64,000 nucleotides of DNA from Candidatus Bathyarchaeota archaeon (lineage in GTDB: Archaea > Thermoproteota > Bathyarchaeia > TCS64). Shown one piece after another: positions 8,663 through 56,874 of this stretch; the stretch's first letter is position 1, and each line of letters opens with the position of its first letter. The stretch is taken from positions 6,819 through 70,818 of the forward strand of contig JAOZHP010000077.1 in NCBI GenBank assembly GCA_026014815.1, written 5' to 3'. The notes beneath the pieces were generated by a model. That model had not been told where the DNA came from, searched no databases, and saw nothing but the letters and a program-made list of their open reading frames with translations. The position numbers and the translations under genes are program-made.

Positions 8663-9355
8663 ATGTCCACCCCCAGAAACCCTCGTATAAGTTCAGGCGT
8701 GCAAAGTTTGGATCATCTCATGGGTGGTGGCTTCATGGCTGGAGCAATCAACCTTGTCTACGGGGAGGCAACGTCTGGGAAGACCACTCTCGCCGTAACA
8801 ACGATCTTGAGTCACCTCAAAGCGAACCGTGCCTCCAAGGCGTTCATCATTGACTCCGATAACAAGTTAAACACGGCTAGGCTCACTCAGATGGCGGAGT
8901 CTAGGGGACTGGGTCTTCTGAAGAGAATTCACACTTACATCCCAGCTAGTTTCAAGGATCAGGAGGAGACCTTGGAGAGCTTACCGGTGTTGGAGCCACT
9001 GGACATTGTTGTACTTGATAGCGTCACAGGGCTCTATCGTGGTGAGACAGGGGATGAGACTCAGACGTATCAGATCAACAAAGAGCTTAACCGTCAGCTA
9101 GGGTACATTACGGAGGTGGCGAACAAGACGGGTGCCGCATTTATACTCACAGGGCAGGTCCGTAGCATCCTTGACACCAGCCTGATTGAGCCTGTCGCCA
9201 CACGTCTTCTTGGCTACTGGAGTAGTATGGTTCTTAAACTCGATAAAACACCTACACCCGGGTTCAAGCAAGTGACCCTTGAGAAGCCAACCGTTAAGCC
9301 AAACACAATCAAGGTAGCAATAACCGAGACAGGAGTAACGGAGGCAGAGATCTGA
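8663..9355 (+). CDS. RecA-superfamily ATPase, RadB/KaiC-like
   Basis: Walker A GEATSGKTTLA, a Walker B-like IVVLDSVTGLY, 230 aa. TGA stop overlaps the CTG/ATA start region of carS. Confidence 0.6.
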   Translation: MSTPRNPRISSGVQSLDHLMGGGFMAGAINLVYGEATSGKTTLAVTTILSHLKANRASKAFIIDSDNKLNTARLTQMAESRGLGLLKRIHTYIPASFKDQEETLESLPVLEPLDIVVLDSVTGLYRGETGDETQTYQINKELNRQLGYITEVANKTGAAFILTGQVRSILDTSLIEPVATRLLGYWSSMVLKLDKTPTPGFKQVTLEKPTVKPNTIKVAITETGVTEAEI

Positions 9356-9828
9356 TACTAGAGACGATTATATCTGCTCTCTACACGTATCTTCCCGCCT
9401 ACTTCGCCAACGCGAGCCCTGTGGTGCTGGGAGGCGGGCCACCACTGGATGGTGGTAGCAGATGGAGTGATGGGCGGCCACTGCTGGGGGACCATAAAAC
9501 CATAAAAGGCACCTTCTACGGCATCCTCGTCGGCATCATAGTAGGTGTCCTTCAGGGAAACATAGTCGGGGGTTCGATGCAGGCGGTGGGAGCTATTGCA
9601 GGGGATATAATCGTCAGTTTCCTCAAGCGGAGAATAGACCTTGTACCGGGTGAGAGTTTCCCAGTTGGCGACCAACTTGATTTTATTGTTTTCGCGGTTA
9701 TCTTGAGTTACCCATTCCAGAACACTTCATGGGGTCAGATCGTGACGATTCTTCTCATCACGCTTCCCATTCATTACGCTGTGAACTATATCGCGTGGTT
9801 GACAAAGCTCAAAGAGCATCCCTGGTAG
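9352..9828 (+). CDS. carS: CDP-archaeol synthase (CarS, DUF46); start is non-canonical (CTG 9352 or ATA 9355), as no ATG/GTG/TTG is available
   Basis: LILETIISALYTYLPAYFANASPVVLGGGPPLDGGSRWSDGRPLLGDHKTIKG matches the CarS N-terminal signature (LPAYxANxSPVL..GGG.P.D). GGAGG sits 7 nt upstream of the CTG. The frame is closed by TAA at 9295, and the first GTG (9421) falls inside the conserved motif. Confidence 0.7.
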   Translation: MILETIISALYTYLPAYFANASPVVLGGGPPLDGGSRWSDGRPLLGDHKTIKGTFYGILVGIIVGVLQGNIVGGSMQAVGAIAGDIIVSFLKRRIDLVPGESFPVGDQLDFIVFAVILSYPFQNTSWGQIVTILLITLPIHYAVNYIAWLTKLKEHPW

Positions 9829-29099: not shown

Positions 29100-29147
29100 C
29101 GTGAGGGGATATTATTATTTCTACAAGGCAGAAAGGAGGCATCTGCC

Positions 29148-30314
29148 CTGAGAGTCACGCCCGGAATAGATGTACTTCTAAAGGACCCGGATAAGCACCT
29201 CGGGCAAGCTAACATAGGTCTCGTCACCAATCCGACTGGTGTGACCAACGGGCTTGAGTCCACCATCGACGCGTTGCACAGATGCTCCAAGGTAAATCTT
29301 AGAGCCGTGTTTGGGCCTGAGCATGGAGCGAGAGGCGACGCGCAGGACGCTCTCAAGGTGTCTGGCCACGTGGACGCGTACACAGGGCTCCCTGTTCATA
29401 GCCTGTATGGTGATCACGAGAAGCCTACCGTTGAGATGCTGGAAGGCCTCGAAGCTCTGGTTTTTGATATACAGGATTGTGGCGCCCGGTTCTATACCTA
29501 TGTTTCAACTCTCACTCATTGCATGGAGGCTTCAGCAGAGCATGGCATACGTGTTGTTGTCCTTGATAGGCCCAACCCTTTGAACGGAGACGCGACCGAA
29601 GGCAACATATTGAAACCCGGTTTCAGGTCCTTCATCGGGTTACACCCAGTCCCTATCCGTCACGGCCTAACTGTCGGTGAGCTTGCCCAGTTCATCAATC
29701 AAGGTATCCAGTGTGATCTTCACGTGGTCGAGATGGAGGGATGGAGACGCGGAATGTGGTACGACGAGACCAGTTTACCGTGGATTCAGCCCAGCCCTAA
29801 CCTGCCCTCCCTTGACACAGCGACAGTGTACCCCGGCACATGCTTCTTCGAGGGAGTGAACGTCTCCGAGGGTAGAGGAACAACGCGGCCCTTCGAGTAC
29901 ATCGGTGCTCCATGGATCGATGGCAGAAGCTGGGCAGAGACCCTCAACAACACAGGTCTCCCCGGGGTGTGTTTCCGGAGCAGCCACTTCACCCCCACCT
30001 TCTGGAAATTCAAGGATGAAAGATGCGGAGGCGTACAGGTCCACGTAGTTGACAGGAAGTGTTTCAGACCAATGGAGACGGGTCTCCACCTTTTAACGAC
30101 GTTAATTCAGCTCTACCCGGACACTTTTAGCTTCAACGAGTCATCCTACGATAAGCGGCGCCACTTTGATCTCCTAGCAGGTACAGACACTCTAAGAGCA
30201 GACCTAATGGCCGGTGTCTCAGTCGAGGAGATCATGGCCTCCTGGATGCCTGAACTGGAGGAATACCGGGAGAAACGTAAAGAGCATCTGCTCTATGGAG
30301 GCGACGATGAATGA
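29148..30314 (+). CDS. namZ: DUF1343-family exo-beta-N-acetylmuramidase (NamZ/YbbC-like); start is non-canonical (CTG 29148 with AGGAGG 8 nt upstream, or ATA), as no ATG/GTG/TTG is available
   Basis: GIDVLL...IGLVTNPTGV, FGPEHGARGDAQDA, FDIQDCGARFYTYVST, LDRPNP and GRGTTRPFEYIGAP are all DUF1343 blocks in order. The frame is closed by the murQ TAA 16 codons upstream, and the first GTG (29241) lies inside a conserved block. Confidence 0.75.
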   Translation: MRVTPGIDVLLKDPDKHLGQANIGLVTNPTGVTNGLESTIDALHRCSKVNLRAVFGPEHGARGDAQDALKVSGHVDAYTGLPVHSLYGDHEKPTVEMLEGLEALVFDIQDCGARFYTYVSTLTHCMEASAEHGIRVVVLDRPNPLNGDATEGNILKPGFRSFIGLHPVPIRHGLTVGELAQFINQGIQCDLHVVEMEGWRRGMWYDETSLPWIQPSPNLPSLDTATVYPGTCFFEGVNVSEGRGTTRPFEYIGAPWIDGRSWAETLNNTGLPGVCFRSSHFTPTFWKFKDERCGGVQVHVVDRKCFRPMETGLHLLTTLIQLYPDTFSFNESSYDKRRHFDLLAGTDTLRADLMAGVSVEEIMASWMPELEEYREKRKEHLLYGGDDE

Positions 30315-51322: not shown

Positions 51323-52132
51323 ATGACCCGCGTCCTTTCCTTCAATACAATGTCCACACCAGATCAAGTATCAATTGTCGGGGCTACCGAGGAGGAAATC
51401 CACTGGCTCACTGAGGTGTGCAAACGAGCATACGACAACGATCCAGAGATAACTGAACACCAGGCAGCTCCCAAAGGCTACGATAAACCCAAGAAACACA
51501 TGAACTACATGGAGTACAACGACTACCAACGCATAGTACTAGACGACTTAACCGCAGGAGCATTAATCATCGCAAACCGCGGCGAACACATCAAGGAACT
51601 TGTTCAGGTATACGTGGAACCCGAGTATCAGCGCCAAGGAGTAGCAACCAAGGCGATCCGCCTGGTCATGGAAAAGTACCCTGAGGTCAAGATATGGACC
51701 GCAGCAGCCCCCGAGTGGAGCACAGCCGCCACAGGGCTCCTTGAGAAACTAGAATTCTCACAGGAGGGAGTCGTCACAGGGAGTGACAAATGGCTCACCA
51801 ACTGGTATCAGAGAGCATCAGGTGAGGCGCCGTCAAAGCCCAAGATCGCTGAACTCAGCGAGGGAATGAAGAACATCACCGTCGAGGGCGAGATACTTGA
51901 GAAAGCCTACGCGCGTCAAGTCAGGAGCAAACGCAGATACGAAACACTCACCGTCGCCGAGACAGGGTTCAGTGACAAGTCAGGCCGACTTGTCCTAACC
52001 CTTTGGAACGAACAGATCAAACTCGTGAACGTAGGCGATAAAGTGCGAGTGATAAACGGGTACGTTACAAGCTACAGGGGCATCACACAGCTCAATGTAG
52101 GTAGATCGGGACGCCTCGTCAAGCTCATCTAA
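51323..52132 (+). CDS. GNAT acetyltransferase fused to a C-terminal RPA/SSB-like OB-fold domain
   Basis: GNAT motif A: VYVEPEYQRQGVATKAI. C-terminal NITVEGEILEKAYARQVRSKRRYETLTVAETGFSDKSGRLVLTLWNEQIKLVNVGDKVRVINGYVTSYRGITQLNVGRSGRLVKL is a typical archaeal RPA-like OB fold. Confidence 0.55.
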   Translation: MTRVLSFNTMSTPDQVSIVGATEEEIHWLTEVCKRAYDNDPEITEHQAAPKGYDKPKKHMNYMEYNDYQRIVLDDLTAGALIIANRGEHIKELVQVYVEPEYQRQGVATKAIRLVMEKYPEVKIWTAAAPEWSTAATGLLEKLEFSQEGVVTGSDKWLTNWYQRASGEAPSKPKIAELSEGMKNITVEGEILEKAYARQVRSKRRYETLTVAETGFSDKSGRLVLTLWNEQIKLVNVGDKVRVINGYVTSYRGITQLNVGRSGRLVKLI

Positions 52133-52213
52133 CCAATTATTAGCCAAACAGGCATCCATGAGGGCACACAAACCTCTACCCTCACCTCGTGACATGTCAA
52201 TCGGGTACCTGAG

Positions 52214-53383
52214 ATAAACATCGCGATAATCCACATGGGCTTTTTCTACAACGGAGGCGGAGAACGCACCGTCCTGAGTCAAGCGATAGAGCTCCAACGA
52301 CGAGGCCATAAGGTTCACGTCTACGCGCCCACGATCCAGCCCAACTGCTTCCCCGAGCTAATTAAACAAGTAAAGACCACAGAGCTTGCGGGGTTTCTAC
52401 CTCAAGGCACGCCCATCAGAAACGCGTCAGGCATGATTCTGTCCAGCCTCAGGGTTCCCATCAAACGTTTCAAGGACTTCGATGTGGTGCTTGCTCACGG
52501 TCAGCCCAGTAACTGGATCGCTTCAAGGATCAAACACCGCCTCCAAACACCATATGTCTCATATCTACACCAGGTCAACAGATTTTTCCAGCCACGGGAA
52601 GTGGACAAACAAACAGGATGGAAAACAGACGGAAATCTACAGTTCTTAGAGTTCCTCCATAGAGGCAACCTAGTCGTAAAGGAGCTGGATATGCGCTCGA
52701 TACGCCAAGCCGATTACGTACTCACAAACTCCCACTGGATAAAAGAAAAGATACAGGACTATTACGGCGTCGAGCCCACTGTATGCCACCCCGGAGTAGA
52801 CACAAAAACATTCACACAAACCCAACACCAAGAAGAGCAGGGACGCTACATATTATCCACCAACAGGCACTACCCCCAGAAACGGCTTGACTACCTAGTA
52901 GACATCATGCGAATATTAACCAGAAGTCACCCGGGCATCAAATGCATCATAACAGGACAGTACACTCCATACACCAACACGCTACAGAAACTAGTCACAA
53001 AAGCAGGCTTGAGCCAAAGTATCCATCTCACAGGCAACCTAACCTCGGAAAAACTCCTAGACACCTACACCGGCTCCTACATCTACACCTTCACGTCACC
53101 AGAGGAGGACTTTGGCCTAGGACCCTTGGAGGCAGCAGCCTGTGGTGTACCCTCCGTCGTCTGGGATCACGCGGGGCCCAGAGAAACAGTTGTAGACGGC
53201 GTAACAGGGTACCGCGTTACCCCCTACTCGGTAACTGAGATGGCTGAGAGACACTTGGAACTTTTGGCGAACCCCCCGCTCCGAGACACGATGGGGAAAG
53301 CGGCAAGGAGCCACGTCATGGACCATTTCACGTGGGAAATACACGTGGATAAGCTGGAAAAGACGCTTCTAACAGCCTGCTAG
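52214..53383 (+). CDS. GT4-family glycosyltransferase; conserved N-terminus (NIAIIHMGFFYNGGGER) lies upstream of the first ATG, implying an ATA or ATC start
   Basis: C-terminal EEDFGLGPLEAAACGVPSV is the GT4 E-x7-E motif. The beta1 strand IAIIH and the GGGER loop precede ATG 52235. In-frame TGA at 52190, and no ATG, GTG or TTG between it and 52235. Confidence 0.6.
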   Translation: MNIAIIHMGFFYNGGGERTVLSQAIELQRRGHKVHVYAPTIQPNCFPELIKQVKTTELAGFLPQGTPIRNASGMILSSLRVPIKRFKDFDVVLAHGQPSNWIASRIKHRLQTPYVSYLHQVNRFFQPREVDKQTGWKTDGNLQFLEFLHRGNLVVKELDMRSIRQADYVLTNSHWIKEKIQDYYGVEPTVCHPGVDTKTFTQTQHQEEQGRYILSTNRHYPQKRLDYLVDIMRILTRSHPGIKCIITGQYTPYTNTLQKLVTKAGLSQSIHLTGNLTSEKLLDTYTGSYIYTFTSPEEDFGLGPLEAAACGVPSVVWDHAGPRETVVDGVTGYRVTPYSVTEMAERHLELLANPPLRDTMGKAARSHVMDHFTWEIHVDKLEKTLLTAC

Positions 53384-53490
53384 GCATTTGGGATCGGTGA
53401 TCCACTTAACTGAACTGTCCCTTTGATGATGAAGATTGGTACGCTTATTGTTTATTAAACATTACAAACCCAATTTTTCTGGGAAACGCA

Positions 53491-56400
53491 ATGAGAACAA
53501 CGAGAAAATTACCCATTACTAAGCGAGTTATATCAATCATAGTGATAGGAATCTTACTCCTATCCTCAATCATACCAATAGCATTCGCGGCAACACCCCC
53601 AACTATACCCGGAAACGAGACTTACATGACCGTTGACGGCGTTCTCGATACAGACAGCTACATACTCTATCCCTACGAGGAAGAAAGCCTCAACATAGGC
53701 TTCTCCAAGTACGGCGAGATGATCAACCCCGATGCCGGGGTTGGACTAGAGTACAAAGGAATAGATGTCTTCGCCAACCCCAACGTTGTTCCAATGTCCA
53801 AATGGAGCAGCGGCTGGATAATGGACATACACTATATACAGCAGGGACACCTGCGGAACGTATGGGCGTACGCGCTTTTCAGCGACTTAGATCTATCAGC
53901 TGGACCCGCTGCCTTCGATGAGGGCTGGAAGGTCCTGCAGCAAACCAAGGACGCGGACACAAGCATCCCCGGCGAGCAGCACGGAGGACAACGAACCAAC
54001 GGAATCGCCGAGACTGACCCGATCCGTCTAATCTACGACGGACCAAGGAGATCTATTTACTTACTCAGGACCGTGATCAGCACTCCCGAGGATGAAGCTC
54101 TCATCGAGCTGACCATACAGCTGGTCTTCAATAAGGTCAAAAAGTACGTCATGGAGATCAAGGACATCAAACGAGTCGCAGACGACAAGTTCGAAGGCCC
54201 CTTCCAGATAGAGTTCAGCCAAAGAGGTCAATGGGACCTCGGCGACGAGGCAAACAGCCTCAGCTACGCAGAGTTCTACAACGGCCTAGAGACAAAGTAC
54301 AACAAACACCCATTCTACACGGTTGACACCGAGCTACCCGAAGGACAGGAACATGAGGTAACATACGACCTTGTCCAGATAATCGCAGACGACGAGGACT
54401 TGGTCGGCTTCGCGGCTTTCTGGCCTCAACTCATAAGCAAATGGGTGACCAACATCGACAGCGGCATAACGAGAATAGGCCGCGACAAGGAACCCAACTA
54501 CTTGACCACAATGGAAACCAAGGAACTAGTAGTCGATATATTAGAGCTACCCGACCTGAAGAAAGAAGAGGATAACTATTACTACATCTGGACAGACGCA
54601 GCGCCGACGGGACCAGACTCACTAGAGATAAGGTTCCCTGACGATACGTTGGTGGAGTACCCACGAGGCTTAGGGGAGTGGAGTGACCAGCCCTGGGTCT
54701 TCAAATGGGACGAAATAGCCGCCGACTGGATGGTGTTATACAGCCCAACCGACTGGATATGGGATGATGGACCCAACAAGGTTTACTTCCCATTCGGACA
54801 CTGGGAGCCAGGAGACAGCTTCAAACTAGTATACAAACGAACGATGATGGGCCACATAGAGCATGAGCCAGTTCCGCTATCTTGTATGGACGGCCTCTTT
54901 GAGGACGATGAAGTTGGGCTCTCCTTCGGGATGTTCGACGAGCCCAAGGTACCATACGTGTTCGCTGAATGGGACTTTGACCTAGATGTCTACGACCCGG
55001 ACAAGGCCTCAGGTCATTTCAGATGCATGTCACTGTACGGAATCACCGATAACAACGACGCAGTGGACCCTGATATGAACACCGACAACGAGTTCAAGAT
55101 CGACAAAGAGGTCATCTATCAACTCAACGAGGTCTTCAACCCATGGGACCTAAAGGACGCAGCCCACAAGGACACCTTCAGGTGGGCCCAGAAAGGTGAT
55201 AGCGACCCTATCACCCTCAAAGCACACTTGATGGACAAGTACGGCAACCTACGAGACTGCCTCGAAGGGAAGCACGTCCTATGTAAACCCGAGAAATGGG
55301 GAGAATACTGCGAAGACAGCGAGAAAGTGCTAATCTGGGACAGTCAAGGCGAGAGACTCCTCAAGAGAGACACAGAGTACACCTTTGACCCGGAGACGGG
55401 CGTGATAGATATCTTTGTACCCTTCTACGAGTACAAGGTACTCTACTCAACGATCCTGTTACCACCGCCAATGACATGGGACGAGACAGACTTTGGGCTC
55501 AGAACCATCAACACCACCACATATGGAATCGACCTGACAAGAGAGTTCACTAGAGACTATGTAGTCTGGACATTCGATTACGACCCAGCGACGATCCCCG
55601 TCCACAGCATGACCGCGGTGGACATCATCTTCAAGAGATGCGACGGCTCCGTGGTGCAGATCGGGTTCGCACCCGGCGAAACCGGTGGAGACATCCCCAT
55701 CATGAAGATATGGGATGGAAGCTGGAGCGGTATAATGGAACTGCCCGACGACATCATAGTAACCCCAGGCACCCTCAACGAAGAGCACTACGAGATAATG
55801 ATCCCGTACAAGTACTTCCTGGACCGTAAATGCCTAAGATGGGCCGCATACGTGCAGGCCGACTTCGACGAGCCTTACGGTGGATCACAGCAGATGGTGT
55901 TCCCATACGGATGGGGCAAGGCACCTCACGAGGACCCATGGAGCAATCCTCTACACAACCTCTACAACGATGGAGTATGCTGGCACAATGGAAGATGGGA
56001 GTGGCTGGTGATAGGCGAGCCATCCCTAGCCTCTGACTCCAGCGGCTCCGCGATGCTAACCGCTACGTGGGCCGACTGGAAGAACAAGGAGACATGGCTA
56101 AGCGCCCTGGACACCCAGTCACTGGATTGGGGACCCACCATACCCTACGTGTTGAGACCCATGGACGGCGACTTCAGAGACGACCTTGGAAGAGCACACC
56201 TCAAGGACGACTGGTGCACACCAGACAACTGGAACGGCGAGGAGATATACCCCTACGCCATCAGCAGCAGCAACATACTCGTCGTGGGTGGACCCATAGT
56301 CAACCTCGCGGCCGAGTACTTCAACGACTTCACAGACGCCTTCGTCTACAGCCAGTACGGTGATGGGTTCTACGCGCCTGGATGTTGGGCACGAACCACA

Positions 56401-56874
56401 CAACCATACTGGTCAGAGGACGTCTTCAACGACGTAACACCCGACGAACTATGGTACGACAGCGTGGACATACACGACGACATCGGGTACGCCATAATAT
56501 CCACATACAAGGACCTAAACGAGACAATCGGCTTCATCGTCTACGGCTACACAGCCGAGGACACCTACTACACATGCTACGCCCTCCGAGGAGGAGGACT
56601 ACCGTGGCTACAGGAGATACAGCCGGGAGTCACAACGGTACTCGTGGAGATGGACTATAAAGACCCCGACCTACACCCGGTAAGGTTCCACGTCAAGGAG
56701 TTCCTGGGACCCTTCACGGAGTGCACAGGAGCATACACCAGCTTCAAAGACGGAATCTACCATGACATGATCCTCTGCGGCACCGAGAACATAGAGTTCG
56801 AGGCAGAGTGCCTAGGCCTATGCTACAAACTCGTGGATATCGACTTCTGCGGACAGGTACACCCAGACCCATAA
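53491..56874 (+). CDS. Very large secreted protein (1127 aa) of unknown function, rich in Trp, Asp and Tyr with scattered Cys
   Basis: N-terminal signal peptide or TM segment VISIIVIGILLLSSIIPIAFAATPP. No further TM segment. No family recognised. Followed by a T9 terminator. Confidence 0.5.
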   Translation: MRTTRKLPITKRVISIIVIGILLLSSIIPIAFAATPPTIPGNETYMTVDGVLDTDSYILYPYEEESLNIGFSKYGEMINPDAGVGLEYKGIDVFANPNVVPMSKWSSGWIMDIHYIQQGHLRNVWAYALFSDLDLSAGPAAFDEGWKVLQQTKDADTSIPGEQHGGQRTNGIAETDPIRLIYDGPRRSIYLLRTVISTPEDEALIELTIQLVFNKVKKYVMEIKDIKRVADDKFEGPFQIEFSQRGQWDLGDEANSLSYAEFYNGLETKYNKHPFYTVDTELPEGQEHEVTYDLVQIIADDEDLVGFAAFWPQLISKWVTNIDSGITRIGRDKEPNYLTTMETKELVVDILELPDLKKEEDNYYYIWTDAAPTGPDSLEIRFPDDTLVEYPRGLGEWSDQPWVFKWDEIAADWMVLYSPTDWIWDDGPNKVYFPFGHWEPGDSFKLVYKRTMMGHIEHEPVPLSCMDGLFEDDEVGLSFGMFDEPKVPYVFAEWDFDLDVYDPDKASGHFRCMSLYGITDNNDAVDPDMNTDNEFKIDKEVIYQLNEVFNPWDLKDAAHKDTFRWAQKGDSDPITLKAHLMDKYGNLRDCLEGKHVLCKPEKWGEYCEDSEKVLIWDSQGERLLKRDTEYTFDPETGVIDIFVPFYEYKVLYSTILLPPPMTWDETDFGLRTINTTTYGIDLTREFTRDYVVWTFDYDPATIPVHSMTAVDIIFKRCDGSVVQIGFAPGETGGDIPIMKIWDGSWSGIMELPDDIIVTPGTLNEEHYEIMIPYKYFLDRKCLRWAAYVQADFDEPYGGSQQMVFPYGWGKAPHEDPWSNPLHNLYNDGVCWHNGRWEWLVIGEPSLASDSSGSAMLTATWADWKNKETWLSALDTQSLDWGPTIPYVLRPMDGDFRDDLGRAHLKDDWCTPDNWNGEEIYPYAISSSNILVVGGPIVNLAAEYFNDFTDAFVYSQYGDGFYAPGCWARTTQPYWSEDVFNDVTPDELWYDSVDIHDDIGYAIISTYKDLNETIGFIVYGYTAEDTYYTCYALRGGGLPWLQEIQPGVTTVLVEMDYKDPDLHPVRFHVKEFLGPFTECTGAYTSFKDGIYHDMILCGTENIEFEAECLGLCYKLVDIDFCGQVHPDP

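What the first reader, a model, noticed from the sequence alone, without database searches (positions are those of the whole stretch)
52190..52240. GT4 glycosyltransferase: the essential beta1 strand and Gly-loop precede the first ATG, and only ATA/ATC codons are available as starts
The in-frame sequence after TGA 52190 is HVNRVPEINIAIIHMGFFYNGGGER. The GT4 Rossmann beta1 (IAIIH) and the GGGER loop are universally conserved and required. Starting at ATG 52235 would delete them. ATA 52214 gives MNIAIIHMGFFYNGGGER, a textbook GT4 N-terminus. With carS and namZ, this makes three conserved genes in one 64-kb window that seem to need ATA/CTG initiation.
Basis: seen in the sequence. Interest (0 to 1): 0.55.

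Follow-up and report, generated by a model that had tools for sequence, protein, structure and literature searches.

The report
Glycosyltransferase gene starting at ATA
An archaeal (Bathyarchaeia) sugar-transferase gene almost certainly begins at the rare start codon ATA rather than at the annotated ATG, and about half of its relatives in public data also start at ATA/ATC/ATT, so databases routinely cut off the protein's first structural strand.

Summary
After TGA 52190-52192 the frame reads HVNRVPEINIAIIH before the first ATG (52235), with no ATG/GTG/TTG in between. The gene is an intact GT4 (GT-B) glycosyltransferase of a Bathyarchaeia MAG, and NCBI annotates it from the internal ATG.

Across 77 non-redundant archaeal orthologous loci, coding constraint begins at exactly the column of ATA 52214. 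Upstream columns contain stop codons and unconstrained codons. That column holds only ATT (19), ATA (14), ATG (11), ATC (8), CTG (8), TTG (8), TTA (8) and CTC (1). The next six codons (R/K/N-I-A-I-I-H) are conserved with synonymous variation.

In 38 of the 77 loci no canonical start can include the strand. In some, a stop lies zero or one codon upstream of the ATH codon (ATA, ATC or ATT). A Shine-Dalgarno peak sits 6-14 nt upstream of this column. It is stronger for ATH and CTG than for ATG and TTG, and there is none before the internal ATG.

The two neighbouring genes use canonical starts in the same loci, so the trait is gene-specific. carS and namZ in the window likewise need CTG starts.

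Verdict: real; a new, family-wide example of a known phenomenon (near-cognate initiation) and a systematic annotation error. The window's own Shine-Dalgarno is weak, and no read or peptide data are available.

The parts
52190..52192 (+). In-frame TGA that closes the frame 7 codons upstream of the proposed start. A second in-frame stop (TAA 52130-52132) ends the upstream gene.
52203..52207 (+). Weak Shine-Dalgarno-like GGGTA, 6 nt (cctgag) upstream of ATA.
   Evidence: The same GGG(T/A/G) element lies at the same spacing in the clade relatives L007, L092, L161, L088 and L002. The family-wide SD energy peak is at -14..-6. The window duplex energy is only -3.9 kcal/mol.
52214..52216 (+). ATA, the proposed initiation codon, presumably decoded as Met by initiator tRNA.
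   Evidence: It lies in the alignment column where coding constraint begins in 77 unique orthologous loci. That column contains only ATT/ATA/ATC/ATG/CTG/TTG/TTA/CTC. 38 of 77 loci have no canonical alternative.
52214..53383 (+). Corrected GT4 glycosyltransferase CDS (389 aa plus stop). The public annotation starts at 52235 (382 aa, P0001).
52217..52234 (+). Codons for N-I-A-I-I-H. Residues 3-7 (IAIIH) form beta1 of the N-terminal Rossmann domain.
   Evidence: AF2 strand E3-7, pLDDT about 97. Conserved with synonymous variation in orthologs.
52235..52237 (+). Internal conserved Met codon, which NCBI and most gene callers take as the start.
   Evidence: There is no SD upstream of it (mean -2.9, window -1.5 kcal/mol). 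It is replaced by Leu, Ile or Phe in 12 of 77 loci.
52253..52267 (+). GGGER glycine-rich loop, where the Pfam Glyco_transf_4 match begins.
52194..52217 (+). Out-of-frame mini-ORF ATG TCA ATC GGG TAC CTG AGA TAA (MSIGYLR*). Its stop overlaps the ATA start. It is probably fortuitous, but it is the basis of the indel rival.
   Evidence: It is not conserved in L161, L007 or L088.
52164..52171 (+). GCACACAA, a copy of a conserved upstream motif G[GCA]ACA[GC]AA found 50-43 nt before the initiator in the whole clade. Its function is unknown.
   Evidence: invariant A, C, A, A columns. No consensus RNA fold. No Rfam hit.
9352..9828 (+). carS read from CTG 9352, with GGAGG at 9340-9344 and a 7-nt spacer. 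This is the second non-canonical start in the window.
   Evidence: The Met of 158-aa orthologs aligns with this CTG.
29148..30314 (+). namZ read from CTG 29148, with AAGGAGG at 29133-29139 and an 8-nt spacer. This is the third non-canonical start in the window.

Best explanation
The GT4 glycosyltransferase gene is intact and is translated from ATA 52214, giving (M)NIAIIHMGFFYNGGGER..., 389 aa. The small ribosomal subunit would be positioned by a short Shine-Dalgarno contact (GGGTA, 6 nt upstream), and initiator Met-tRNA would pair with AUA despite the third-position mismatch.

This is not peculiar to this genome. In Bathyarchaeia the orthologous gene family starts at the same alignment column with AUU/AUA/AUC in about half of the lineages. 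In the others it uses CUG, UUG or AUG there. The weaker start codons are paired with stronger Shine-Dalgarno sequences.

The likely consequence is a low, throttled rate of initiation for this enzyme.

Shown: the coding onset, the codon spectrum, the SD position and strength, and the canonical starts of neighbouring genes. Inferred: that Met-tRNAi is the initiating tRNA, and that low expression is the selected property.
For:: of the 120 best database homologs, 52 are called from the internal Met (MG[FL][FM]Y) and 51 carry the extension x-[IVL]-[AG]-x-x-H.

161 loci were fetched.

(77 unique archaeal loci): columns -10..-1 contain stops (1-21%) and 14-20 residue types. Column 0 holds only ATT19/ATA14/ATG11/ATC8/CTG8/TTG8/TTA8/CTC1. 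There are no stops from column 0 onward. Columns +1..+6 are R/K/N, I/V/L, A/G, I/V/L, I/F/V, H(100%), each with several synonymous codons. 38/77 loci have no ATG/GTG/TTG between the upstream stop and +1.

decisive loci:
- L122: TGA lies immediately before ATT, and there is no Met in the beta1-loop region.
- L099: TGA lies one codon upstream of ATT.
- L009-L012, L094, L096, L097, L114, L116: TAG lies one codon upstream of ATC or ATT.
- L013: TAA lies one codon upstream of ATA.
- L161: this is the closest homolog (62% identity), with TAG at the fifth codon upstream of ATT.

the SD hybridisation energy peaks at -14..-6 (mean -6.0 against a background of about -1 kcal/mol). By start codon the means are ATH -7.8, CTG -8.6, ATG -4.25, TTG -4.0 and control -3.6. 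There is no SD before the internal ATG (-2.9).

ATH is clade-structured. It is retained through the window's whole subtree (47-72% aa identity) and in two other deep clades.

the divergent GT2 neighbour uses ATG/GTG/TTG in all 31 unique loci in which its start column is present. The downstream secreted-protein gene uses ATG in every locus examined that contains its 5' end.

a confident GT-B model in which IAIIH is strand 1, matching solved GT4 enzymes.
Against: The window's own SD is weak (-3.9 kcal/mol, no better than the control region). The case for this particular gene therefore rests mainly on orthology.

No reads, transcripts or peptides are available. Only one assembly carries the sequence (1 member, 1 contig).

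ATC 52220 (+2) cannot be formally excluded as the actual start.

In Sulfolobus, aIF1 discriminates against AUU in vitro (Asano 2014, PMC4705826), so efficient AUH initiation in an archaeon is not the default expectation.

The TTA-containing clade shows that the column-0 rule is not perfect. There, an in-frame ATC at -7 may be the start.

A crude SD-anchored test for genome-wide near-cognate starts was not significant.
Confidence: 0.8

Rival explanations
1. The public annotation is right. Translation starts at ATG 52235, and the protein lacks beta1. The upstream similarity to orthologs is untranslated.
For: ATG 52235 is the first canonical start. NCBI and most pipelines call it so. The Met is conserved in 65/77 loci.
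Against: Amino-acid-level conservation with synonymous codon variation extends 6 codons upstream of this Met in every locus. The Met is replaced by Leu, Ile or Phe in 12/77 loci, which then have no start at that position. There is no SD upstream of it. The model puts IAIIH as the first strand of the N-terminal Rossmann domain.
Confidence: 0.04
2. There is an assembly error or a very recent mutation in this MAG. Either the true codon at 52214 is ATG, or one base is missing between 52197 and 52213. In the second case ATG 52194 would be the in-frame start (MSIGVPEINIAIIH...), the same length as the MISWEPEIRIAILH extension of the L002/P0003 clade.
For:: ATG 52194 is one base out of frame. Adding one base, for example in GGG 52203-52205, gives an N-terminal extension of exactly the length seen in L002, L089 and L091, which have ATG at -7. 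Only one assembly exists.
Against: The nearest relatives (L161, L007, L092, L093, L088) have ATH at column 0 and no ATG in any frame nearby. L161 has a stop at -5. Apart from the ATG itself, the nucleotides upstream of GGG do not align with the L002 extension (reading). An ATG in one of two off-frames within about 20 nt is expected about 20% of the time by chance (own estimate). No error needs to be invoked, because ATH is the ancestral state of the subtree.
Confidence: 0.07
3. Initiation occurs at another near-cognate codon just downstream (ATC 52220, ATA 52226 or ATC 52229), giving a slightly shorter beta1.
For: These codons are in frame and are single-mismatch near-cognates. Ile at +2 is conserved, so ATH is nearly always available there.
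Against: Column +1 (R/K/N) is conserved with synonymous Arg codons AGG, AGA, CGA, CGC and CGG, which implies it is translated. The SD spacing fits column 0 (5-8 nt), whereas +2 would be at 11-14 nt. Canonical ATG/TTG clades place their start at column 0, not +2.
Confidence: 0.07
4. The gene is decaying into a pseudogene after losing its start.
For: It combines a weak SD with a weak start codon.
Against: The ORF is full length. All 52 invariant family residues are retained. The model is confident. The same start type is maintained across clades down to 42-51% identity.
Confidence: 0.02

Closest known systems
Asgard archaeal tubulin AtubA with an inferred rare ATT start (Sci Adv 2026, PMC13394414)
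   Same: The logic and the situation are the same. The deposited archaeal protein lacked the first beta strand of a Rossmann-like sheet. An upstream ATT restores it and sits at a plausible distance from an RBS.
   Different: That is a single gene in a single genome. Here the same column is ATH in 41 of 77 non-redundant orthologs across several deep clades, with SD compensation and neighbour-gene controls.
Enterococcus faecalis ebpA ATT start (mBio 2015, PMC4447247)
   Same: The annotated downstream ATG is wrong, and a rare ATT start attenuates expression.
   Different: That case is bacterial, was experimentally proven by mutagenesis and reporters, and involves IF3-type discrimination. Here there is no experiment, and the archaeal factors aIF1 and aIF2 apply.
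Bacterial infC (IF3) AUU start codon (reviewed in Asano 2014, PMC4705826)
   Same: A non-canonical AUU start is conserved across orthologs over long evolutionary distances.
   Different: For infC, the AUU is part of a demonstrated autoregulatory loop through IF3 fidelity. No such loop is known or tested for this glycosyltransferase, and the codon here drifts among AUU, AUA and AUC and alternates with CUG, UUG and AUG between clades.
GT4 retaining glycosyltransferases of known structure (BshA 3mbo/5d00, MshA 3c4q, PimA 2gej, WaaG 2iv7)
   Same: GT-B fold with full-length structural match (TM 0.72-0.79). Pfam Glyco_transf_4 plus Glycos_transf_1. N-terminal strand followed by a Gly-rich loop. E-x7-E motif (PEEDFGLGPLE).
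   Different: Sequence identity is only 16-22%. No NCBIfam equivalog reaches its cutoff. Donor and acceptor are unknown.

Membership tests
GT4 (GT-B fold, retaining) glycosyltransferases | N-terminal Glyco_transf_4-type and C-terminal Glycos_transf_1-type domains | tested here: met
   PF13439 77.9 bits (cutoff 28.5) and PF00534 111.5 bits (cutoff 26.4).
GT4 (GT-B fold, retaining) glycosyltransferases | Two Rossmann-like domains (GT-B) superposable on solved GT4 enzymes | tested here: met
   AF2 pLDDT 94.1, pTM 0.91. Foldseek E about 1e-20 and TM 0.72-0.79 to BshA, MshA, PimA and WaaG.
GT4 (GT-B fold, retaining) glycosyltransferases | First beta strand followed by a glycine-rich loop at the N-terminus | tested here: met
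   This holds only if translation starts at or before 52217. Strand E3-7 = IAIIH. His+6 and GGG(E) are invariant in 77 loci.
GT4 (GT-B fold, retaining) glycosyltransferases | E-x7-E motif in the C-terminal domain | tested here: met
   invariant E299 and E307 within PEEDFGLGPLE (sequence reading).
GT4 (GT-B fold, retaining) glycosyltransferases | Glycosyl transfer with retention; defined donor and acceptor | not testable with these tools
   No NCBIfam equivalog passes its cutoff.
Genes initiated at a near-cognate (non ATG/GTG/TTG) codon | Conserved, translated protein sequence extends upstream of the first canonical start | tested here: met
   (synonymous variation at +1..+6).
Genes initiated at a near-cognate (non ATG/GTG/TTG) codon | No canonical start in frame between the upstream stop and the conserved region | tested here: met
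   Window. Orthologs: 38/77 loci.
Genes initiated at a near-cognate (non ATG/GTG/TTG) codon | Orthologs place a canonical start in the same alignment column | tested here: met
   ATG in 11 and TTG in 8 of 77 loci at column 0.
Genes initiated at a near-cognate (non ATG/GTG/TTG) codon | Ribosome-binding site at a functional distance from the proposed codon | tested here: inconclusive
   Family-wide it is clearly met (peak at -14..-6, ATH mean -7.8 kcal/mol). In the window itself there is only GGGTA at 6 nt, with -3.9 kcal/mol, which equals the control level.
Genes initiated at a near-cognate (non ATG/GTG/TTG) codon | Direct evidence of the N-terminus (peptide, ribosome profiling, toeprint, mutagenesis) | not testable with these tools
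   The organism is an uncultured MAG, and no such data are reachable here.
infC-type regulatory non-AUG start | Expression responds to the level or fidelity of the start-codon proofreading factor | not testable with these tools
   There are only indirect hints: no ATH-to-ATG reversion among 7 ATH-to-ATH changes (p about 0.06) and SD compensation.

The most novel reading that the evidence does not exclude
The AUH start (and possibly UUA in one clade) is actively maintained in this Bathyarchaeia glycosyltransferase family as a translational throttle or sensor. Its output would depend on the stringency of archaeal start-codon proofreading (aIF1), making it an archaeal counterpart of bacterial infC AUU. 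In addition, Bathyarchaeia ribosomes would accept AUH and CUG starts far more readily than the model archaea studied so far, as suggested by three such genes in one 64-kb window.
Probability: 0.25. Interest if true: 0.7.

Novelty: new member of a known kind. Interest (0 to 1): 0.5.

Why it matters
There are three reasons.

(1) Annotation. At least 52 of the 120 closest database entries of this family, including the NCBI entry for this gene, are truncated at an internal Met and lack the first strand of the fold. Several others are truncated further, or are extended to spurious upstream GTG/ATG codons. Anyone who expresses or models these proteins from the deposited sequences will be working with a defective N-terminus.

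(2) Biology. Archaeal initiation is usually described as AUG/GUG/UUG only, and Sulfolobus aIF1 rejects AUU in vitro. This family shows a conserved, SD-compensated use of AUU/AUA/AUC and CUG in one orthologous gene across a whole archaeal class. It is a natural data set for studying how stringent archaeal start selection really is.

(3) Gene prediction. Callers restricted to ATG/GTG/TTG will systematically miss such starts in uncultured archaea. Alignment-column analysis with SD profiling, as done here, can find them.

Tried and rejected
- **Genome-wide SD-anchored enrichment test.** This looked for near-cognate codons in the pre-start regions of 232 ORFs from the window and loci. It gave 11/269 for near-cognates against 80/3566 for other codons, which is not significant. 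Only 16 of 228 first canonical starts carried a strict SD, so the test is underpowered and says little either way.
- **Automatic clustering of all ORFs in the loci to find further non-canonical families.** Spurious antisense and off-frame ORFs dominated the clusters. Among the real-gene clusters I relied on two as controls, the GT2 neighbour and the large secreted protein; one further real-looking cluster (193 aa) was ATG in 11/11 members.
- **Rfam search of the window and the leader.** No hits.
- **RNAalifold on the 5' leader of 21 clade members.** No consensus structure. Single-sequence folds suggested SD-sequestering hairpins in some loci, but the pattern is not consistent, so I dropped that idea.
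- **Sequence search of the PDB.** It aligned only the C-terminal domain. I used structure prediction and Foldseek instead.
- **CTG 53410 with GGTGATC upstream as a start for the downstream 1127-aa gene.** Rejected, because all orthologs share a conserved promoter-like box and GGGAAACGCA-ATG.
- **Readthrough from the upstream gene.** Rejected, because two in-frame stops (TAA 52130, TGA 52190) lie in between, and the upstream gene is different in other loci.
- **Literature searches for non-canonical starts in Bathyarchaeota.** I found no report on this lineage or this family.

Full report
**Observation.** The sequence is as described. TGA 52190-52192 is followed in frame by CAT GTC AAT CGG GTA CCT GAG ATA AAC ATC GCG ATA ATC CAC ATG, which reads HVNRVPEINIAIIH-M. 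The first ATG/GTG/TTG of the open frame is ATG 52235. The ORF is a GT4 glycosyltransferase. Pfam Glyco_transf_4 matches from the GGGER loop onward, and Glycos_transf_1 covers the C-terminal half. The identical 382-aa protein (P0001) is deposited at NCBI from a Candidatus Bathyarchaeota MAG and is annotated from the internal ATG.

**Database homologs.** Among the 120 best homologs, 52 begin exactly at the internal Met (MG[FL][FM]Y...). Another 51 carry an N-terminal extension containing x-[IVL]-[AG]-x-x-H directly before that Met. Several are truncated even further. Such a split suggests a start-calling problem rather than two protein forms.

**Comparative DNA evidence.**
- I fetched 80 genome loci, 80 metagenome loci and the contig of the closest homolog P0002. 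All were anchored on the invariant His of the strand.
- Codons are numbered so that the codon aligned with ATA 52214 is column 0.
- In 77 non-redundant archaeal loci, columns -10 to -1 contain stop codons in 1-21% of loci and 14-20 different residue types. They are not coding.
- Column 0 contains only ATT (19), ATA (14), ATG (11), ATC (8), CTG (8), TTG (8), TTA (8) and CTC (1).
- From column 0 onward there is no stop.
- Columns +1 to +6 are R/K/N, I/V/L, A/G, I/V/L, I/F/V and His (100%), each encoded by several synonymous codons. That is the signature of purifying selection on a translated sequence.
- In 38 of the 77 loci no ATG/GTG/TTG exists between the upstream in-frame stop and +1.

The most decisive individual loci are these:
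- L122 has TGA immediately before ATT, and Leu replaces the internal Met.
- L099 has TGA one codon upstream of ATT, with HLG in place of HMG.
- L009-L012, L094, L096, L097, L114 and L116 have TAG one codon upstream of ATC or ATT.
- L013 has TAA one codon upstream of ATA.
- L161, the closest homolog at 62% identity, has TAG at the fifth codon upstream of ATT.

Independent assemblies from many samples show the same pattern, so sequencing error is not a general explanation.

**Ribosome-binding site.**
- I scanned hybridisation energy to the archaeal 16S 3' tail (GAUCACCUCCU) along the loci. There is a single sharp peak for 8-mers starting at -14/-13, with a mean of -6.0 kcal/mol against a background of about -1.
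- The motifs are GGAGG(C/T), GGGGTG(A) and GGTG, placed 5-8 nt before column 0 whatever the codon there.
- The SD is stronger where the start codon is weaker. Means are ATH -7.8, CTG -8.6, ATG -4.25 and TTG -4.0, against -3.6 for a control region.
- There is no SD in front of the internal ATG (-2.9).
- For the window itself the element is only GGGTA (52203-52207, 6 nt spacer, -3.9 kcal/mol). The same GGG(T/A) element at the same spacing occurs in its nearest relatives L007, L092, L161, L088 and L002.
- A similar GGGAAAC precedes the ATG of the neighbouring, presumably highly expressed, secreted-protein gene.

**Structure.** An AlphaFold2 model built on the family alignment (pLDDT 94.1, pTM 0.91) makes residues 3-7 (IAIIH) the first beta strand, followed by the Gly-rich loop and helix 16-30. 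The model superposes over its full length on solved GT4 enzymes (BshA, MshA, PimA, WaaG; TM 0.72-0.79). Starting at ATG 52235 would remove this strand.

**Is it gene-specific?**
- The divergently transcribed GT2 gene next to the GT4 uses ATG (20), GTG (5) or TTG (4) in the same loci. Two more loci have ATG/TTG offset by one column, so all 31 are canonical.
- The downstream large secreted-protein gene has a conserved TTATTGTTTATTAAA box and CTGGGAAACGCA-ATG in all loci.
- The non-canonical start is therefore a property of this gene family, not general sloppiness.
- On an NJ tree the start type is clade-structured. The window's entire subtree (47-72% amino-acid identity) is ATH, except for one subclade with TTA. 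Two other deep clades are also ATH.
- Parsimony gives 7 ATH-to-ATH changes, 3 ATG-to-ATH changes and no ATH-to-ATG change. This hints that ATG is avoided, but (2/3)^7 is about 0.06, so it is only a hint.

**The other two genes.**
- In carS, the Pfam domain starts at residue 21 of the open frame, while the first canonical start is codon 42. CTG 9352 lies 7 nt after GGAGG. It aligns with the Met of 158-aa orthologs, of which 104 of 120 start with M. NCBI's own entry for this MAG (P0121, 153 aa, MISALY...) uses ATT 9367, so PGAP itself accepted a non-canonical start there, though probably the wrong one.
- In namZ, NamZ_N profile position 1 is residue 39, and the first canonical start is codon 48. 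CTG 29148 lies 8 nt after AAGGAGG.
- At least 3 of 53 long ORFs in the window therefore need non-canonical starts. For carS this is a lineage-specific change. For the GT4 it is the family norm.

**Alternatives for the window gene.**
- *Start at ATG 52235.* The evidence above contradicts this.
- *Assembly error or recent indel.* ATG 52194 is one base out of frame, and one added base would give MSIGVPEINIAIIH. That has the same length as the MISWEPEIRIAILH extension of the L002 clade, which has ATG at -7. However, the nearest relatives have ATH at column 0 with no ATG nearby, and the flanking nucleotides do not align. It cannot be excluded without reads.
- *Start at ATC 52220 (+2).* This is disfavoured by the conservation of +1 with synonymous Arg codons and by the SD spacing.
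- *Readthrough from the upstream gene.* This is excluded by two in-frame stops.

**Comparison with known cases.** Table 11 lists ATA, ATC, ATT and CTG as rare prokaryotic starts. infC (AUU) and E. faecalis ebpA (ATT, which attenuates expression; PMC4447247) are bacterial examples. An Asgard tubulin was recently corrected to an ATT start by the same missing-first-strand argument (PMC13394414). Reviews describe archaeal initiation as AUG/GUG/UUG and report that Sulfolobus aIF1 discriminates against AUU (PMC4705826). I found no report of non-canonical starts in Bathyarchaeia or in this family.

**Unexplained.**
- A linear motif G[GCA]ACA[GC]AA is conserved 50-43 nt upstream of column 0 throughout the window's clade (window 52164-52171). 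It has no consensus fold and no Rfam match.
- One clade has TTA at column 0 with GGGGA 6 nt upstream. An in-frame ATC at -7, with period-3 variation between the two, may be its real start.

**Verdict.** The case extends to a family-wide, SD-compensated use of AUH and CUG starts in one archaeal gene family, which has led to systematic N-terminal truncation in the databases. It is a new member of a known kind and is moderately interesting.

Noticed in passing
window 9298-9828 (+): carS needs a non-canonical start. CTG 9352 (7 nt after GGAGG) aligns with the Met of 158-aa orthologs. The NCBI entry for this MAG (P0121, 153 aa) instead starts at ATT 9367, so the pipeline accepted a non-canonical start but probably chose the wrong codon.
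   Followed up: yes
window 29100-30314 (+): namZ (NamZ_N + NamZ_C). The Pfam domain begins 9 codons before the first canonical start (GTG 29241). CTG 29148 lies 8 nt after AAGGAGG and is the likely start.
   Followed up: partly
window 52164-52171; loci L001-L019, L088-L119, L161 at -50..-43 from the GT4 start: A linear motif G[GCA]ACA[GC]AA is conserved at a fixed distance upstream of the GT4 initiator across the clade, even though the upstream gene differs in the window. It has no consensus RNA structure and no Rfam match, and it is not repeated elsewhere in the window beyond chance. It may be a promoter or TSS element, or a regulator site.
   Followed up: partly
L001, L003-L006, L008, L024, L029, L081-L087, L102 (also L113, L136): One subclade has TTA at the initiator column with GGGGA 6 nt upstream. 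UUA differs from AUG at two positions. An in-frame ATC at -7, with third-position variation between it and column 0, may be the real start there.
   Followed up: partly
window 53445-53493 and 53491-56874 (+): The downstream 1127-aa secreted protein has a signal-peptide-like N-terminus and no Pfam or NCBIfam match. Its upstream region is strongly conserved (TTATTGTTTATTAAA, then CTGGGAAACGCA-ATG) in every related locus that contains the gene's 5' end. It is syntenic with the GT4 and is possibly a glycosylated surface-layer protein.
   Followed up: partly
window 51323-52132 (+): The upstream gene fuses a GNAT acetyltransferase domain (residues about 77-146) to an SSB/RPA-like OB fold (residues about 171-268). 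This is an unusual domain combination.
   Followed up: no
loci L030-L080 (Dormibacterota and Chloroflexota MAGs): In the bacterial homologs (about 37% identity, RRIAVFHCGFTYSGGGER) the frame stays open for 330-525 codons upstream, with conserved in-frame ATG/GTG codons. There the GT4 module appears to be the C-terminal part of a much longer protein.
   Followed up: no
L113 vs L122, at the start region: These two close relatives differ by one A in a homopolymer (gaATTaaaata vs gaaTTAaaaata). In L113 this puts the ATT start out of frame. It is either an assembly error in L113 or a real shift to another start.
   Followed up: no
L098/L154 (protein P0024) and L015/L117 (protein P0070): Some database entries are over-extended rather than truncated. 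Gene callers chose an upstream in-frame GTG or a far-upstream start, although the strong SD (for example GAGGTGA) sits 6 nt before the ATC at column 0.
   Followed up: partly
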